DNA of 64,000 bases from Dictyostelium discoideum (GCA_000004695.1 CM000150.2:1536001-1600000); one strand, 5' to 3'. Numbered from the stretch's first letter, positions 14,314-48,170 are shown. Numbers and translations are program-made. The notes: a model not told the origin generated them from the letters alone.

Positions 14314-14364
14314 TGGGTGGGTTGTTTTTTTTTTATTATGTGTTTGTGTGGGTGTGAGTGTGAT
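14314..14364 (-). promoter_or_regulatory. CA-rich element (CAE/G-box-like; CACACCCACAC on the minus strand) ~160-200 bp upstream of the torsin-like gene start
   Basis: Plus strand reads gggtgggttg...tgtgtttgtgtgggtgtgagtgtga. It is an isolated GT/CA-rich block in A/T-rich intergenic DNA. The same motif class recurs upstream of other genes in the window (26481, 48142, 38091). Confidence 0.3.
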
Positions 14365-14994
14365 TAAAATTTAAGGAAAATTAAAAAATTTAAAAAAAAA
14401 AAAAAAAAAATTTTTAAAAAAAATAATTAAAAAAAATAAAAAAATAATAGTTGTAATTTTACATTATGTTTTTAAAAAAAAAAAAAAATAATTCAATATC
14501 CAAAACAATAATAATCAAATGCTTTGAAGAAAAATATTCATTTATTTTAAATCTTACATAATTTTTTTTTTTTTCTAATCTTGTAGATAATTAATATACA
14601 AAATAATTAGGATGTCAACCAAAATTTAATTAAAGTCAGTTATTGTATAAAAATAATATAAAATTTTGCTATACTAAAATGTAATTATAAACAAAAATAA
14701 AAGGTAAAAAAAATAATTTTATAAAATGATCTTTTTTTTTTTTTTTTTTTTTTTTTTTTTTTTTTTTTTTTTTCTTAAATTTAAATCTAAACAATAAATT
14801 TTTATTTATTTATTTTTAATAATTTACCACTTACCTATAATGTAAAATATATAACGATAATATATTTAAAATAAATACATTACATTTTTTACATTTGATA
14901 TTTTTATTTATTGTTGAAAAAAAAAAAAAAAAATAATATTAATAATAATTAAAAAAATAAAAAAATAAAAATAATTTTTGTATATATATTAAAA

Positions 14995-17900
14995 ATGAAG
15001 AAATCTAAAATTTTATTCATTCTAATATTTTTTTTAATTAATTTAATTTTGGTATTCTCATCATCCACATCACAATGTAAGTGTGTTTGTTTTTCATTGA
15101 ATAAAATTAAAATTAAAATTATAAAAACTAAAAAAAAAAAAAAAAAAAAAAAAAAAAAAAAAAAAAAAAAACATTATATTATAGGGGAAACAATATCAAA
15201 AATAAATAATTTAAATAAAATTAACTCATTTTTATATATCAATGAAATAAACTCAATATTTACATATAATAACAAATCGATTTATATTTATAATTTAAAA
15301 AATAATACAAATTCAATAATTGATGAATTACCAATTGGTAAAGAAATAATCCCAACACTTATAAATGAAATAGACAATATTGCAATAAATTATAATAATA
15401 ATAATTATGATTTATATGTATTAGGTACTGATAGACTGGATGTAATAGCAAATAAAAAAATAATTCAAAACCTTAAATATCCATATTTTAGTATTACAAA
15501 AAATTTAAAAAATAATAGCAATAATAATAATATTAATAAATTATTTATACAATTATTAAATAAAAAACATGGGCCAATAAAATCATTTAAATTATTTAAT
15601 GATAATATTTATTTTATTGATGAAAAATATAAAAGAATGACAGTTATAAATCAAAAAGATGAAATTCAATTTACAATTGGTAAAGGAATTATTAATGATC
15701 CAATTGACTTTATAATAAATTCAATTGATAATCAAATATTTATTTTAGATAATGCGACCAACACTATTAATTTATTCAACTTAAACAATGGTAATAATTT
15801 AGGTGAAATTTCATTTCAATTACAAAATGAAAATGAAAATGAAAAAATCAATTCAATCACATATGAACCATCTCATAAAATACTTTATACATTAAATAAA
15901 AATGGTGTAATTATTGGTTTTAAAAAGAATAGCAATGGTATAACAACATTTAAATCAATAAGGAAATTACAATTACAATTATTTGATGAAACGTTTCATC
16001 CAAATATTTCAATCAATTATTTAAAAATTGATATTTTATTCAATAATTCTATAATAATTGCAAGTGAAAATAAAATTGAAATTTTTAAATGGGTTGGGCC
16101 ATCAATTACAAATATTCAATTTATATATAACAGAATTGAAATCAGTGGTAATGGATTAACAAATGTATCATTAGTATATTTTGAAAATGATAAATTAAAT
16201 CCTTGTACTGATTTATATTTTCATTATGATAAATTAATAAGTTGTAAATATGAAAATATAAAATCAAAATTAAAAACTAATAATAATTATCAAATTAATT
16301 TAATATTTAATAATAATTCTATTGAAGAAAATAATAATGACAATGATGAAGATGATATAAAATTTTTAATGGGTAATTTATTATTTATAAATGATGGTTG
16401 TATGGAAAATTATATATATGATGAAATTAATTTAAAATGTAAAAAATTAAATAATAGTTTAATAACAATTTCAAAATGTTTAAATAAAAAAGAAAGTGAT
16501 AATTTTAATAAAACTATAACAATGATTGGGGAAACGTGTCCAAATTCAACAGATGATGGTGATGGTGATGATTGGGAACAGATTTCAAATTCAACCATTA
16601 ATATCGGGTTAAATAAAATATTAAGATTTCAAAAATGTTGGGATGAAAAATTAATGTATAGATTCACTGAAATTGATTCAATACCAACGATTGAATCAAA
16701 TTTAATTTTAAAAAATAATAATTGTAAATTTACATTTGATGAACCAATTTTAATAGATTTACAAAATATTATAAATTTATATCAATTAACTTGCTTTGAT
16801 TTATATGGTACAAATAATATAATTAAAGCAAGTGGAATACCAATGATACCATATACTTGTAATATTTCATTAACAAATACCAATACTACAAATACAACTA
16901 AAAATGAAGATCTAATATTTTTAAAAAATTTTCAACCTTGGTTAATAGGTTATTCAAGATGTTTACATGGTATTAGGCTTAAAAATGATTTAGATAAATG
17001 TCAATGTAATTCAAACAGTAGTGGTGATGGTGGTGGTGATGGTGGTGATATTTGGATTGGTAAACAGTGTGATAGACAATCTTGTAATAGTAAAGTTGGT
17101 TATGAATTGGTTCCATCCACTGGACAATGTAAATGCAATAAAAAATGTAATGAAAATGAAGTATTGGAACCAATATCATGCCAATGTCAATGTAATATAT
17201 CAATGCCTTTTAGATGTCCAGATTCTAATGATTGTACAAACTCATTTTCAAATTGTTTGAAATCATTCATTAGTAAACAAAATCGATGTGATAATTTATC
17301 AAGTAAACCATTTTCATGTGTTAATGGTAACTGTTATTCATCACCATCTGAATGTTTATCATCAATACCAGAATGTTTATATAAAAAATGTTGTTGGAAC
17401 GGTCAACCTTATCCAAACCCAAAATCACCCACATCATCATGTTTAACATTACCAAGTTGTCCAAATATATTACCATATCGTTGTATTGATGGGTCATGTA
17501 AATTATCAATATCACAATGTATTTCCAAAACATTATTATTCACTCACCATACCCCTTGTAAACTAAATGACCTATGTCCAGATGGAACATGCCCACCTTG
17601 TTCAAATTATGATGGTTGTTCAATTCTTCAACCAATTCAATGTCTAAATGGTGAATGTAAAAATAATTACACACAGTGTCAACTACCATCATTAATATTT
17701 GGAAATAGTAGTAGTACTACTACTACTACTACAATTAATCTTTTAAAAAACAATGACCTCTTAATATCATCATCACCAATTTCATTTTTATTTGAACCTA
17801 AAAATAATGGAAATCAATTATTACCAATTTATATAAAACCAATTAAAACAATAGTTACAGTTGAAACTGGTATTGATAAAAGTGTTAAAGTGTATAATAA

Positions 17901-46310: not shown

Positions 46311-47530
46311 TTAATCATCAAATTCTCTCTTTTTTTTATTTATTGGTAATCTTGGAGGATAAGGTATTGGTTTTGAAAAAGCATTTGGTAATGGTAATGG
46401 TAATTCTTTAAAATAAGGATGATCTAAAGCTTCAGATGCAGTTATTCTTTTTGAGGGATCATATAGGATCATTTTTGAGAGTAAATCATAGGCTTGACTA
46501 TTTTCATCGATACCAACACATTTTGCTAATGAATTTGGAAAAGCTTCCATACTTGATAACCTTTTCCATTCTGGTAAATGTTTAATATCTGGCCACATAT
46601 CTAAAGTTGGTTTACCTAATACTCTAATTATCTTTTCAACTTGATCATCTTGAAATAGTGATGGAATCTTTGGATCTTTCTCTTTGCCAGGGAATAAAGG
46701 TTTGGTTGTAATTAGTTCAGCGAAAATACAACCAATCGCCCAAATATCCACAGCCCTCGTATAATGCTTTGAGCCTAGTAATAGTTCGGGCGACCTATAC
46801 CAAATGGTCACAACTACACCATTCTCGTTCAATGGTTTCAATGGTGATTGAAATATTCTTGCAAGCCCAAAATCACCAATTTTCACAGTACCACATTCTT
46901 TTCCTTCTCCCATCACTAAAATATTCGATGGCTTTAAATCCCTATGTATTACCCAATTACTATGTAGATAATGTATACCATTCAATACTTGCCATATTAA
47001 TGATTTAATTGTTGCGTCTGAAAAATGACTTCCATTCTCTCTATGATACTTTATAATTCCAAATAAATCAAATTCTGCATAATCAAATATTAAATATAAT
47101 AACTTATCTTTTGGATTTAAACAAACATCTAATAATTTAACTATATTTTCATTTGATAATTCTTTTAATAACTTTTATAATAATTAGTTAGTATGTAATA
47201 GTTTATTATATATTTATTATTTATTATTTATTATTTATATATACTTACACCAATTTCTCTATATGCAGTTAAAGATAAACCTTCACCTTCTTTTGTACTT
47301 CTAAATTTTTTAACGGCCACTTTATTGTTTGGCCTTTTTTTATCATCTGCTTTATAAACCATACCGTATGTACCTGAACCAATTTCATAACTAAATGTAT
47401 ATTTCTCTTGAACGTCTAATCTATATGTTGATGTTAAAACTATTGGTGAAAATGTTGATGACCCACCACCACCACCACCACCGCCACTACCACCACCATT
47501 TTGATTACTACTTTGATTATGTGTGTTCAT
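46311..47530 (-). CDS. cdk8: Cyclin-dependent kinase 8-like protein kinase, 2 exons (47530..47249, 47171..46311; ~380 aa)
   Basis: Exon 1 encodes [25 protein letters not shown]...[14 protein letters not shown]...VAVKKF...SLTAYREIG and ends at a GTAAGT donor. The acceptor ttataaaag (AG at 47173/47172) joins to [14 protein letters not shown]...[78 protein letters not shown]. The GTVKIGD(M/F)G and SPLKPL...VVT(F/I)WYR(A/S)PELLLG motifs are diagnostic of CDK8/CDK19. Confidence 0.85.
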
Positions 47531-48141
47531 TTTTATTTATATTTATATTTATATTTATATTTATATTTTAATTTGTATGTTTATGAGAGAGCGTGTGTGT
47601 GTATGTATGTATATATATATATTTTAAATTTAATACTTGTTTAAATTTTAACTACACAAATAATTTTTTTTCAAATTATAATCTTTAATTTTTTTTTTTT
47701 TATTTTATTAATTTTTTTTTATTCTTGATAAAATTTAATTTCTTTTTTTATTTTTATTTTTTTTTATTAATTAAAAATATATTTTTTTTTTTTTTCATTT
47801 TTTTTTTTTTCATTTTTTTTTTTTTTTTTTTCATTTTTTTTTTTTCATTTTTTTTTTTTTTTTTTATTTATTTATACAATCATTTCCATAACAATACAAC
47901 AACGGCTTTAAAGCTGTATTAAAATGCTTTTTTTCTTTTAAAAATAATTGTTATTTAAAAAAATAGTGTTTTTAATAATAAAAAAAAAAAAAAAAAACCA
48001 TATATATATTTATAAATAGTTCAATTTTTAATAAAAGAGACTTTTTTTTTTTTCTTTTTTTTTAAAAATTTTGTTGAAATTTAAAAATAAAAAAAAAAAA
48101 AAAAAAAAAAAAAATTTAAAAAAACATTTGTTAAATTTAAT

Positions 48142-48170
48142 AACACACACCCCACTCTCAAAACATTCAC
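48142..48170 (+). promoter_or_regulatory. CA-rich element (aacacacaccccactctcaaaacattcaca) ~90-110 bp upstream of the 48255 ATG
   Basis: Near-identical core to 26483-26500 (ACACACACCC[C]ACTCTCA). Confidence 0.3.

What the first reader, a model, noticed from the sequence alone, without database searches (positions are those of the whole stretch)
14314..48170. Recurrent CA-rich (CAE-like) motif, core CACACACCC(C)AC(TCTCA), upstream of at least four genes in their direction of transcription
Blocks at 26481-26501 (cacacacacccactctcacac) and 48142-48160 (acacacaccccactctcaaaac) share a 17/18-nt core. A related CACACCCACACAAACAC sits on the minus strand at 14314-14364 upstream of the torsin-like gene. 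Further CA-rich blocks (cacacacctttacatctcacacac ... cacccccaccacca) lie at 38091-38190 and 37681-37765 upstream of the PHD gene. Against a ~90% A/T intergenic background these C-containing islands are statistically conspicuous. They resemble the CA-rich elements/G-boxes bound by the G-box binding factor GBF in post-aggregative Dictyostelium promoters. Shared promoter elements would predict co-regulation of otherwise unrelated genes (RasGEF, TPR protein, torsin-like, PHD finger).
Basis: partly seen in the sequence, partly recalled or inferred. Interest (0 to 1): 0.5.

Follow-up and report, generated by a model that had tools for sequence, protein, structure and literature searches.

The report
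Generic C-rich islands at Dictyostelium gene starts
The CA-rich blocks are real, but they are examples of a common, strand-oriented C-rich island found at the 5' ends of about half the Dictyostelium discoideum genes in this window, not a specific shared motif that would mark four genes as co-regulated.

Summary
The window is Dictyostelium discoideum AX4 chromosome 1. [quoted passage not shown]

C-rich, G-poor islands are far commoner in the 87% A+T intergenic DNA than composition predicts: 21 observed against 0.9 expected. They are a general class. Other genes in the window have them too (eIF4E, cdk8, RING, cshA, ORF218, transglutaminase-like).

Sequences fitting the degenerate GBF half-site (T/G)G(T/G)G(T/G)G(T/G) form 21 clusters in 8 intergenic regions.

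The extended core CACACACCC(C)ACTCTCA has only two copies. That similarity is reached in about 5% of shuffles of the islands themselves. It is absent from the orthologous promoters of D. firmibasis, D. citrinum and D. dimigraforme, where only C/CA-richness and approximate position persist. The (CA)n parts differ in length between D. discoideum strains.

Islands point toward the gene they precede. They usually lie just 3' of the sense-strand oligo(dT) tract that marks Dictyostelium transcription starts.

Most likely they are generic promoter-proximal or 5'-leader elements. GBF binding and co-regulation could not be tested. One block (37736-37767) lies between two ultra-conserved non-coding elements.

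The parts
26481..26501 (+). It is the least conserved part of an otherwise conserved ~190-nt segment.
   Evidence: D. dimigraforme has (CA)n here; D. firmibasis and D. citrinum have A-rich sequence.
26512..26545 (+). Second C-rich block of the RasGEF 5' region (ctcactcaaacccccaaaaataaacacaaac). The core CCCCCAA...CACA is present in all four species.
26400..26434 (+). Sense-strand oligo(dT) tract, preceded by GGCAAAATAAAATAA. Cross-species conservation (AAATTGTAATTATCAT...) begins at its 3' end, which makes this a candidate transcription start site (TSS) for RasGEF.
   Evidence: TSS rule from PMC3371697.
48143..48164 (+). Only the taaCACACA part is positionally conserved in five taxa.
48042..48063 (+). 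Sense-strand oligo(dT) tract upstream of the TPR block, preceded by TAATAAAAGAGAC. This is the canonical TATA-oligo(dT) arrangement and a candidate upstream TSS.
48214..48254 (+). 41-nt leader gttaaaaaatagatagaattaataataagcataaacaaagg, almost invariant in five taxa. It starts about 30 nt after tatatataa (48183-48193), giving an alternative downstream TSS for TPR.
47578..47610 (-). Unlisted CA/CT block acatacatacacacacacgctctctcataaaca, 48-80 nt upstream of the cdk8 ATG. It is (CA)4 in AX4 and (CA)9 in strain ACTFIW, and is absent in D. citrinum and D. dimigraforme.
14340..14364 (-). Torsin-like gene CA block atcacactcacacccacacaaacac.
   Evidence: A CA-rich block is present at the same place in all four species, with a different sequence in each.
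14314..14325 (-). Second C-rich block of the torsin 5' region (caacccacccaa), followed by a (TA)n run.
14392..14410 (-). T19 on the minus (sense) strand, 28 nt upstream of the torsin CA block.
38050..38072 (+). Oligo(dT) tract after TATATTAA (38042-38049). Its end predicts a PHD TSS near 38074-38076, where conservation (CAACGGATAGATTTCCCAC) begins in all four species.
38087..38303 (+). Three C/CA-rich islands (38087-38109, 38126-38199, 38276-38303), 260-480 nt upstream of the PHD ATG at 38564 and probably inside a long 5' leader. The ends are conserved; the middle CA-rich part varies in length and sequence.
37736..37767 (+). C-rich block gccactccccaccccctcaattagcc. It is the least conserved stretch between two highly conserved non-coding blocks; only CCC..TCAA is common to the four species.
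37806..37890 (.). Ultra-conserved non-coding block, with about 5 variable positions among four species. It contains ATAATTTTTGGGTAT, which on the minus strand is a canonical DUSE (ACCCAAAA, 37820-37827). A T-run follows on the plus strand.
   Evidence: No Rfam hit.
37213..37440 (.). Second highly conserved non-coding block of about 230 nt and about 40% G+C, preceded by oligo(dT) and TATATATAC. It includes the C-rich island 37260-37280.
   Evidence: No significant fold.
20221..20254 (+). C/CT-rich island directly after an oligo(dT) tract and before a (TA)n run, 476 nt upstream of the eIF4E ATG. It shows that the class extends beyond the four genes.
9952..9974 (+). Island ccaacaaccaaccacaaa lying between a T16 tract and the ATG of ORF 9975-10631. 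This is the clearest case of an island that must be 5' leader.

Best explanation
The blocks belong to a general class of short C-rich, G-poor islands, made of CA-, CT- and C-run microsatellite-like sequence, that mark the 5' ends of many D. discoideum genes.

Shown:
- The islands are strongly over-represented in intergenic DNA.
- They are C-rich on the strand of the gene they precede.
- They sit preferentially just 3' of the sense-strand oligo(dT) tract.
- They are kept as C-rich islands at roughly the same place in sister species, while their exact sequence turns over, partly by repeat slippage.

Inferred:
- In D. discoideum the 3' end of the sense oligo(dT) tract lies about 2 bp before the transcription start. 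Most islands, including the RasGEF, PHD and torsin blocks and possibly the TPR block, would therefore lie in the first ~10-130 nt of the transcript or straddle the start site.
- They would act as a compositional element in an otherwise A/T-only landscape. Two ways are possible: low-specificity sites for G/C-box factors such as GBF, or an A/C-rich, G-poor leader that stabilises the early RNA:DNA hybrid and stays unstructured.
- The 17/18 match between the RasGEF and TPR blocks is best read as convergence of two (CA)n-(C)n-(CT)n islands, not as a shared regulatory word. It does not predict co-regulation of the four genes.
For: Enrichment and spread:
- 21 islands observed against 0.9 expected.
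- GBF-type half-site matches: 35 in 21 clusters against 0.7 expected, spread over 8 intergenic regions.
- 7 of 19 promoters have at least 9 C in 20 nt on the sense strand, and 10 of 19 have at least 8.

Orientation:
- All 4 islands in tandem spacers are sense to the downstream gene.
- 12 of 16 islands in divergent spacers point to the nearer gene.
- The 700 nt upstream of eIF4E, RasGEF and PHD carry C:G of 71:21, 63:22 and 95:22, with the same skew in three other species.

Position relative to the start-site mark:
- A sense T-run of at least 10 lies within 100 nt upstream of 15 of 21 islands (expected 8.9, P=0.006).
- Such a run lies downstream of only 5 of 21 (expected 9.2, P=0.04 for depletion).
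- Poly-A tracts show no such pattern.
- PMC3371697 reports that poly-T tracts end about 2 bp before the TSS, with the TATA box at -29.
- Cross-species conservation starts exactly at the end of the oligo(dT) for RasGEF and PHD.
- ORF218 has T16, then the island, then the ATG.

Turnover of the sequence:
- The extended core is absent from orthologous promoters.
- Island 10-mers are conserved in 11% of cases against 22% for other informative 10-mers.
- (CA)4 against (CA)9, and CCCC against ATCC, between D. discoideum strains.

Persistence: orthologous promoters of RasGEF, PHD, eIF4E, torsin and TPR keep a sense C-island.

Specific motif: the best island-island similarity is reached in 14 of 300 shuffles.
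Against: - No transcript-end data were available, so the position of the start sites is inferred from sequence rules and conservation only.
- For TPR, a second reading is equally good: the CA block lies about 25 nt upstream of tatatataa and about 60 nt upstream of the invariant leader. That would make it a classical upstream element. The eIF4E, torsin and ORF218 islands are also followed closely by (TA)n runs, and a TATA-like sequence within 40 nt downstream occurs at 6 of 21 islands against 2.8 expected (P=0.04).
- Taken over all T-runs of at least 12, C is not specifically enriched downstream.
- Introns in the window show no C>G skew, so transcription alone does not explain the strand bias.
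- Against a whole-window background, the shared 9-mer CCCACTCTC is very unlikely (2 observed, 0.02 expected). A real shared word cannot be excluded from 64 kb.
- Sample sizes are small (19 promoters), and islands within one spacer are not independent.
- Persistence of islands across species is only marginal when tested per gene (P=0.08).
Confidence: 0.6

Rival explanations
1. One reading: the blocks are bona fide CA-rich elements or G-boxes. They are bound by the zinc-finger factor GBF (GbfA) and give the four genes post-aggregative, cAMP-inducible, co-ordinated expression.
For: - All four 5' regions contain matches to the published GBF response element (T/G)G(T/G)G(T/G)G(T/G). Several form two clusters 20-35 nt apart: torsin 14314-14322 and 14345-14355; RasGEF 26482-26492 and 26520-26526; PHD 38139-38145 and 38177-38185.
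- C-rich character persists in the orthologous promoters.
- GBF is known to act on G-rich motifs of both prestalk and prespore genes (PMC6598861; PMC3253789).
Against: - The consensus is so loose that 21 clusters in 8 spacers match, including housekeeping-type genes such as eIF4E, so it does not define a regulon.
- The extended shared core is not conserved and is barely above chance among islands.
- Exact island sequence is conserved less than other intergenic words.
- The strict sense-strand bias and the oligo(dT)-then-island order are not expected of an orientation-independent enhancer. That GBF sites work in both orientations is my recollection of the G-box versus CAE literature and was not checked here.
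- No binding or expression data were available.
Confidence: 0.2
2. The islands are functionless by-products of replication slippage and mutation bias. They would be CA/CT/C microsatellites that happen to accumulate in spacers.
For: - Repeat-length polymorphism between D. discoideum strains, and loss of the cdk8 block in D. citrinum and D. dimigraforme.
- Island words are conserved less than other informative words.
- Many islands are visibly (CA)n, (CT)n or C-runs.
Against: - Strand orientation relative to genes: 16 of 20 islands.
- Ordered position after the sense oligo(dT).
- Persistence of an island at the same promoter in four species for RasGEF, PHD, eIF4E, torsin and TPR.
- A conserved core CCCCCAA in RasGEF and CAACGGATAGATTTCCCAC in PHD.
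Confidence: 0.12
3. Some blocks are DUSE-type promoter elements or parts of unannotated non-coding RNA genes, not elements of the neighbouring protein genes. This applies especially to the 37681-37767 blocks in the 3.4-kb cshA-PHD spacer.
For: - DUSE is [AT]CCCA[AT]AA, about 60 nt upstream of ncRNA starts (PMC3188802; PMC7919456).
- An invariant ACCCAAAA lies on the minus strand at 37820-37827, inside an ultra-conserved block.
- Two non-coding blocks there are more conserved than typical spacer DNA.
- Several other islands carry DUSE matches: 9677, 35973 and 44012, all on the minus strand.
- Near-DUSE ACCCACAC occurs in the torsin and PHD blocks (read directly from the sequences).
Against: - No Rfam family matches.
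- No fold signal or covariation.
- An 8-mer DUSE match occurs 12 times in the window and could be chance.
- The C-rich block itself is the least conserved part.
- The TPR and RasGEF cores are not DUSE matches.
Confidence: 0.08

Closest known systems
GBF-binding G-boxes / CA-rich elements (CAEs) of post-aggregative D. discoideum promoters (cprB, cotC, lagC, sigN)
   Same: Short G/C-containing islands in very A/T-rich promoters. The sequence fits the degenerate half-site (T/G)G(T/G)G(T/G)G(T/G), and half-sites often occur as two nearby clusters.
   Different: - These islands are not restricted to a developmental gene set: 8 spacers in 64 kb carry them.
- They are strand-biased toward the sense strand and ordered after the oligo(dT) tract.
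- Their exact sequence is not conserved.
- Neither binding nor GBF-dependent expression has been shown.
Canonical D. discoideum core promoter architecture: TATA at -29, sense oligo(dT) ending ~2 bp before the TSS (Kimmel & Firtel 1983; Chang et al. 2012, PMC3371697)
   Same: The islands are embedded in exactly this architecture: TATA-like box, oligo(dT), then island.
   Different: The sections of that paper read here discuss only A/T tracts. No C-rich, G-poor element following the oligo(dT) appears in them.
DUSE, the Dictyostelium upstream sequence element of ncRNA genes ([AT]CCCA[AT]AA, ~60 nt upstream of the TSS)
   Same: A CCC-containing word in A/T-rich DNA with a fixed distance to a start site. 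The TPR CCCCAC lies about 62 nt before the invariant leader.
   Different: The TPR and RasGEF cores do not match the DUSE consensus. The neighbouring genes are protein-coding, and no ncRNA was demonstrated.
Promoter and 5'-UTR microsatellites (dinucleotide CA/CT repeats)
   Same: (CA)n and (CT)n tracts, length-polymorphic between strains and turning over between species.
   Different: They are short and compound, are kept at the same promoters across four species, and are strand-oriented with respect to the gene.

Membership tests
GBF-binding G-box / CAE | [quoted passage not shown] | tested here: met
   One search gives these matches: TPR 48143-48153 (3 overlapping), RasGEF 26482-26492, 26520-26526 and 26759-26765, torsin 14345-14355 and 14314-14322, PHD 38139-38145, 38177-38185 and 38290-38298. 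The consensus is taken from PMC2257962.
GBF-binding G-box / CAE | Two half-sites close together. This is my recollection of Hjorth 1990 and Powell-Coffman 1994; those papers are not held in the library. | tested here: inconclusive
   Torsin, RasGEF and PHD have two clusters 20-35 nt apart. TPR and cdk8 have a single run of overlapping matches.
GBF-binding G-box / CAE | The element distinguishes a set of genes from other promoters (specificity) | tested here: not met
   21 clusters lie in 8 of the window's intergenic regions, against 0.7 expected. Sense C-islands precede at least 10 of 19 genes.
GBF-binding G-box / CAE | The site sequence is conserved in orthologous promoters | tested here: inconclusive
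   C/CA-richness and position persist: (CA)3-5 for TPR in 5 of 5 taxa, CCCCCAA for RasGEF in 4 of 4. The flagged 17-nt core does not persist. Island 10-mers are conserved in 11% of cases against 22% for other words.
GBF-binding G-box / CAE | GBF protein binds the element (EMSA or ChIP) | not testable with these tools
   No binding data are accessible.
GBF-binding G-box / CAE | The gene is induced after aggregation, by cAMP, and depends on gbfA | not testable with these tools
   No paper in the library mentions the neighbouring gene IDs, and expression tables are not available.
DUSE (ncRNA upstream element) | Match to [AT]CCCA[AT]AA (also [CT] at position 6) | tested here: not met
The TPR and RasGEF cores do not match, and torsin and PHD have only the 7/8 match ACCCACAC.
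DUSE (ncRNA upstream element) | A non-coding RNA gene starts ~60 nt downstream | tested here: inconclusive
   There is no Rfam hit and no fold signal. Two ultra-conserved non-coding blocks flank the site.
D. discoideum 5' leader (sequence just 3' of the TSS-marking oligo(dT)) | Located immediately downstream of a sense-strand oligo(dT) tract | tested here: met
   15 of 21 islands have a T-run of at least 10 within 100 nt upstream (P=0.006), and only 5 of 21 have one downstream. For the four claimed blocks the distances are 46 nt (RasGEF), 79 nt (TPR), 28 nt (torsin) and 14 nt (PHD).
D. discoideum 5' leader (sequence just 3' of the TSS-marking oligo(dT)) | Present in the mature or primary transcript (EST, RNA-seq or 5' RACE) | not testable with these tools
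   No transcript data could be retrieved.
Simple-sequence (microsatellite) DNA | Repeat-unit structure with length polymorphism between strains | tested here: met
   cdk8 block: (CA)4 in AX4 against (CA)9 in ACTFIW. TPR block: CACACACCCCACTCTCA against CACACACACAATCCACTCTCTCA.

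The most novel reading that the evidence does not exclude
Sense-strand C-rich, G-poor islands placed directly after the oligo(dT) tract that marks the transcription start would be a general, orientation-dependent element of group-4 dictyostelid genes, maintained through evolution. 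They could act as a downstream core-promoter or early-leader signal, for example by giving the first stable RNA:DNA hybrid after a poly(U) start. The A/T-tract-centred description of Dictyostelium promoters, as far as it was read here, does not mention such an element. Separately, the cshA-PHD spacer may hold an undescribed DUSE-driven non-coding RNA locus.
Probability: 0.3. Interest if true: 0.5.

Novelty: new member of a known kind. Interest (0 to 1): 0.27.

Why it matters
The evidence here argues against using this word to predict co-regulation.

What remains useful is more general. In a genome whose spacers are 87% A+T, nearly all the non-A/T information sits in short islands. In this window and its orthologues those islands are strand-oriented and ordered relative to the start-site oligo(dT). 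A genome-wide test with mapped start sites could add a C-rich component to the standard Dictyostelium promoter model. It would also help separate true GBF sites from generic islands.

Tried and rejected
- **Dispersed repeat or mobile element.** A local alignment of the two flanks is not above shuffles (score 36, reached in 37 of 500 shuffles), and CCCACTCTC is not found in other loci. Rejected.
- **tRNA or known RNA family at the blocks.** No tRNA was found and no Rfam hit at gathering or E≤10. Rejected.
- **Transcription-linked C>G skew of all non-coding transcribed DNA** (suggested by the intron remark in PMC6511855). Introns in this window show no skew. Rejected as a general cause.
- **Gene-model-free test of C enrichment after every T-run of at least 12.** No asymmetry was seen. 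Only the island-centred test is directional.
- **Structured RNA in the ultra-conserved blocks.** Fold z-scores are -0.46, +0.56 and -0.29, with no compensatory pairs. Unresolved.
- **Protein homology searches with the TPR protein.** Both failed. The full-length query was swamped by low-complexity words and the 213-aa core found nothing. I switched to cdk8, eIF4E and cshA clusters to reach orthologous loci.
- **Primary GBF/CAE papers and TSS tables.** Not held in the library.
- **Literature on the neighbouring gene IDs, on CACCC-type motifs and on dutA.** Nothing usable.

Full report
**Source of the window.** The window is Dictyostelium discoideum AX4 chromosome 1. Several ORFs translate exactly to AXx4 RefSeq proteins: GH7 cellobiohydrolase XP_647587, DDB_G0268152, the torsin-like DDB_G0268156, eIF4E XP_647593, peroxisomal citrate synthase XP_647596, Cdk8 XP_647600 and DDB_G0268166. 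Gene calls from a near-identical assembly put the PHD start codon at 38564 and show cdk8 (46311-47530, minus strand) divergent from the TPR gene.

**Observation.** Every quoted string is present. Coordinates are exact for the RasGEF block and a few bases off for the TPR block, which spans 48143-48164. The RasGEF and TPR blocks match 17/18 only with one gap, so an ungapped search allowing 3 mismatches finds only the query itself. The short core CACACCCAC with at most 1 mismatch occurs 14 times against 1.5 expected, but several hits are in coding DNA.

**Are the islands more than chance?** Yes, as a class.
- The 17.4 kb of intergenic DNA is 87.3% A+T.
- It contains 21 islands with at least 8 C (or G) in 20 nt and at most one of the complementary base. 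Shuffling each spacer gives 0.9 expected. At a threshold of 10, the count is 11 against 0.04.

As a specific motif, barely.
- CCCACTCTC occurs twice against 0.02 expected on a whole-window background.
- When the 22 C-rich islands are shuffled internally, the best pairwise similarity (score 18, shared by RasGEF/TPR and RasGEF/PHD) is reached in 14 of 300 trials, for both mono- and dinucleotide shuffles.
- Outside the CA block the two flanks are not similar beyond A/T-rich background.

**How general are they?**
- Scoring the sense strand of the 700 nt upstream of 19 genes, 7 have at least 9 C in 20 nt: torsin, eIF4E, RasGEF, PHD, cdk8, TPR and a transglutaminase-like gene. Ten have at least 8.
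- The published GBF response element is (T/G)G(T/G)G(T/G)G(T/G) (Hjorth 1990, quoted in PMC2257962). It matches 35 times in 21 clusters in 8 spacers, against 0.7 expected.
- The four promoters therefore do fit the GBF half-site, but so does about every second promoter here.

**Orientation and position.**
- All four islands in tandem (same-direction) spacers are C-rich on the sense strand of the downstream gene. In divergent spacers 12 of 16 point to the nearer gene.
- Upstream regions of eIF4E, RasGEF and PHD have C:G of 71:21, 63:22 and 95:22, and the same skew appears in three other species.
- A sense-strand T-run of at least 10 lies within 100 nt upstream of 15 of 21 islands (random placement gives 8.9, P=0.006). 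One lies downstream of only 5 of 21 (9.2 expected, P=0.04 for depletion). Poly-A tracts show no such pattern.
- Chang et al. 2012 (PMC3371697) showed that D. discoideum genes begin about 2 bp after the 3' end of a sense poly-T tract, with the TATA box at -29.
- By that rule the RasGEF block starts about 46 nt after the tract (which ends at 26434), the torsin block 28 nt after it, the first PHD island 14 nt after it and the TPR block 79 nt after it. These distances would place them in the 5' leader.
- One island (9952-9974) sits between a T16 tract and the ATG, so it can only be leader.
- A weaker association points the other way: a TATA-like run lies within 40 nt downstream of 6 of 21 islands against 2.8 expected (P=0.04).

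**Comparative evidence.** The Cdk8, eIF4E and citrate synthase protein clusters gave access to syntenic loci from D. firmibasis, D. citrinum, D. dimigraforme, a divergent D. discoideum strain (ACTFIW) and D. purpureum.
- **TPR.** The 41 nt before the ATG are almost invariant in five taxa, preceded by an A-run and a (TA)n box. About 45-60 nt further upstream every taxon has taaCACACA. The CCCCACTCTCA tail is specific to D. discoideum, though D. citrinum has CACTCTCT. ACTFIW reads CACACACACAATCCACTCTCTCA.
- **cdk8.** The block is (CA)4 in AX4 and (CA)9 in ACTFIW. It is degenerate in D. firmibasis and absent in D. citrinum and D. dimigraforme. D. purpureum has a different CA-rich word at about the same distance from the ATG.
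- **RasGEF.** A segment of about 190 nt, starting exactly at the end of the oligo(dT) (AAATTGTAATTATCAT...) and ending at GCATAGAG/GTATATC, is conserved in four species. The second block keeps a core CCCCCAA...CACA in all four.
- **Torsin.** All four species have oligo(dT), CCTTAAATTTT, a CA block, an A-run, a C-rich block and then (TA)n. The C-rich words differ in each.
- **PHD.** Conservation starts at CAACGGATAGATTTCCCAC, directly after TATATTAA plus oligo(dT). It continues as a mosaic for about 490 nt to the ATG. The CA-rich middle is the variable part.

Across all orthologous spacers, island 10-mers are found in the other species less often (11%) than other 10-mers with at least 2 G/C (22%). 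Promoters with a strong island in D. discoideum tend to keep one in the other species: the mean best score is 7.7 against 5.7, with P=0.003 per instance and P=0.08 per gene. CCCACTCTC is absent from all non-discoideum loci. What is maintained is a C-rich island at a place, not a word.

**Interpretation.** The evidence fits a generic, strand-oriented, compositional element of the 5' end of the gene better than a regulon-specific CAE.
- I consider location in the early transcribed leader somewhat more likely than a position upstream of the start. This holds for the RasGEF, PHD and torsin blocks and for most islands.
- For TPR the two readings are about equal. The upstream candidate is TAATAAAAGAGAC plus T12CT9 ending at 48063. 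The downstream candidate is tatatataa at 48183-48193, followed 30 nt later by the invariant leader.
- How the islands act is inference. They could be low-specificity sites for G/C-box factors, GBF among them. They could also be an A/C-rich, G-poor start of the RNA that gives a stable hybrid after a poly(U)-prone region, an idea in line with the discussion in PMC3371697.
- Pure slippage without function is unlikely, given the orientation, order and persistence. Slippage clearly does shape the sequences.

**The 37681-37767 blocks.** They lie in an unusually long (3.4 kb) spacer without protein genes between cshA and PHD.
- The C-rich stretch is the least conserved part of a region that holds two very conserved non-coding blocks: 37213-37440 and 37806-37890.
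- The latter contains ATAATTTTTGGGTAT. On the minus strand this is a canonical DUSE (ACCCAAAA, 37820-37827). DUSE is the element found about 60 nt upstream of many Dictyostelium ncRNA genes (PMC3188802; PMC7919456).
- No Rfam family matches, and neither block folds better than shuffles or shows covariation. An unannotated ncRNA locus is possible but not shown.

**Limits.**
- Only one 64-kb window plus about 150 kb of orthologous DNA was examined.
- No transcript ends, expression data or binding data were available.
- The statement that functional GBF sites need two half-sites and work in either orientation rests on my memory of that literature.

**Verdict.** These are new instances of a known kind, the G/C-containing boxes of A/T-rich Dictyostelium 5' regions. 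The directional oligo(dT)-then-island arrangement could be tested genome-wide.

Noticed in passing
window 37806-37890 (L005 ~19400-19518 -, L006 ~19514-19630 -, L007 ~19112-19232 -): A non-coding block of about 85-95 nt, almost invariant among four Dictyostelium species. It has no ORF in any frame and is followed by a T-run. It contains an Sm-site-like AUAAUUUUUGGG on the plus strand, which is a canonical DUSE (ACCCAAAA) on the minus strand. There is no Rfam match and no fold signal.
   Followed up: partly
window 37213-37440: A second conserved non-coding block of about 230 nt and about 40% G+C, preceded by oligo(dT) and TATATATAC in all four species. A central ~60 nt has no substitutions at all, which argues against protein coding. 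Fold z-scores are not significant on either strand.
   Followed up: partly
window 26436-26618, 26705-26733 and 27055-27061: The RasGEF upstream region has conserved segments ending in GAG/GTATATC and AAAG/GTAAGT, and an AG just before the ATG. This suggests one or two non-coding 5' exons and 5'-UTR introns. The eIF4E upstream region likewise has CGTTCAAG/GTAAGT about 265 nt before its ATG (about 20460).
   Followed up: partly
window 55277-55324: A G-run-rich stretch (ggggtggggaagagggatagggagaggggg) lies in the 100-bp spacer between the convergent 3' ends of the cupin and transglutaminase-like genes. It is the only island in a 3'-3' spacer and a candidate G-quadruplex-forming sequence.
   Followed up: no
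window 57600-63000 (minus-strand ORFs 59915-60142, 60757-60966, 61570-61794, 62476-62703) and 1443-3916: Two tandem arrays of small ORFs. One has about four copies spaced about 0.8-0.9 kb apart, sharing ...ccaccacatgaaccacat.... The other is a plus-strand set of about 110-aa ORFs sharing caaacccatcaaatatcacc. They look like small secreted or cysteine-rich gene families.
   Followed up: no
window 4789-6162: The GH7 cellobiohydrolase gene has about 38% G+C over 5001-6000, far above its neighbours (17-27%). Its protein is at least 90% identical and exactly 457 aa long in the sister-species proteins listed in its cluster.
   Followed up: no
window 38237-60204 vs L002 (GCA_054883475.1): This second D. 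discoideum assembly differs from AX4 almost only in homopolymer and trinucleotide-repeat lengths (7 mismatches and 18 gaps in 22 kb). It is therefore the same laboratory lineage or carries homopolymer assembly errors.
   Followed up: yes
L009 ~3900-4100 (D. citrinum torsin/ORF1321 spacer); window 43060-43260: Long (ATT)n/(AAT)n microsatellites occupy promoter spacers. The one in D. citrinum (about 220 nt) is absent from the orthologous D. discoideum spacer, which shows how fast these spacers turn over.
   Followed up: no
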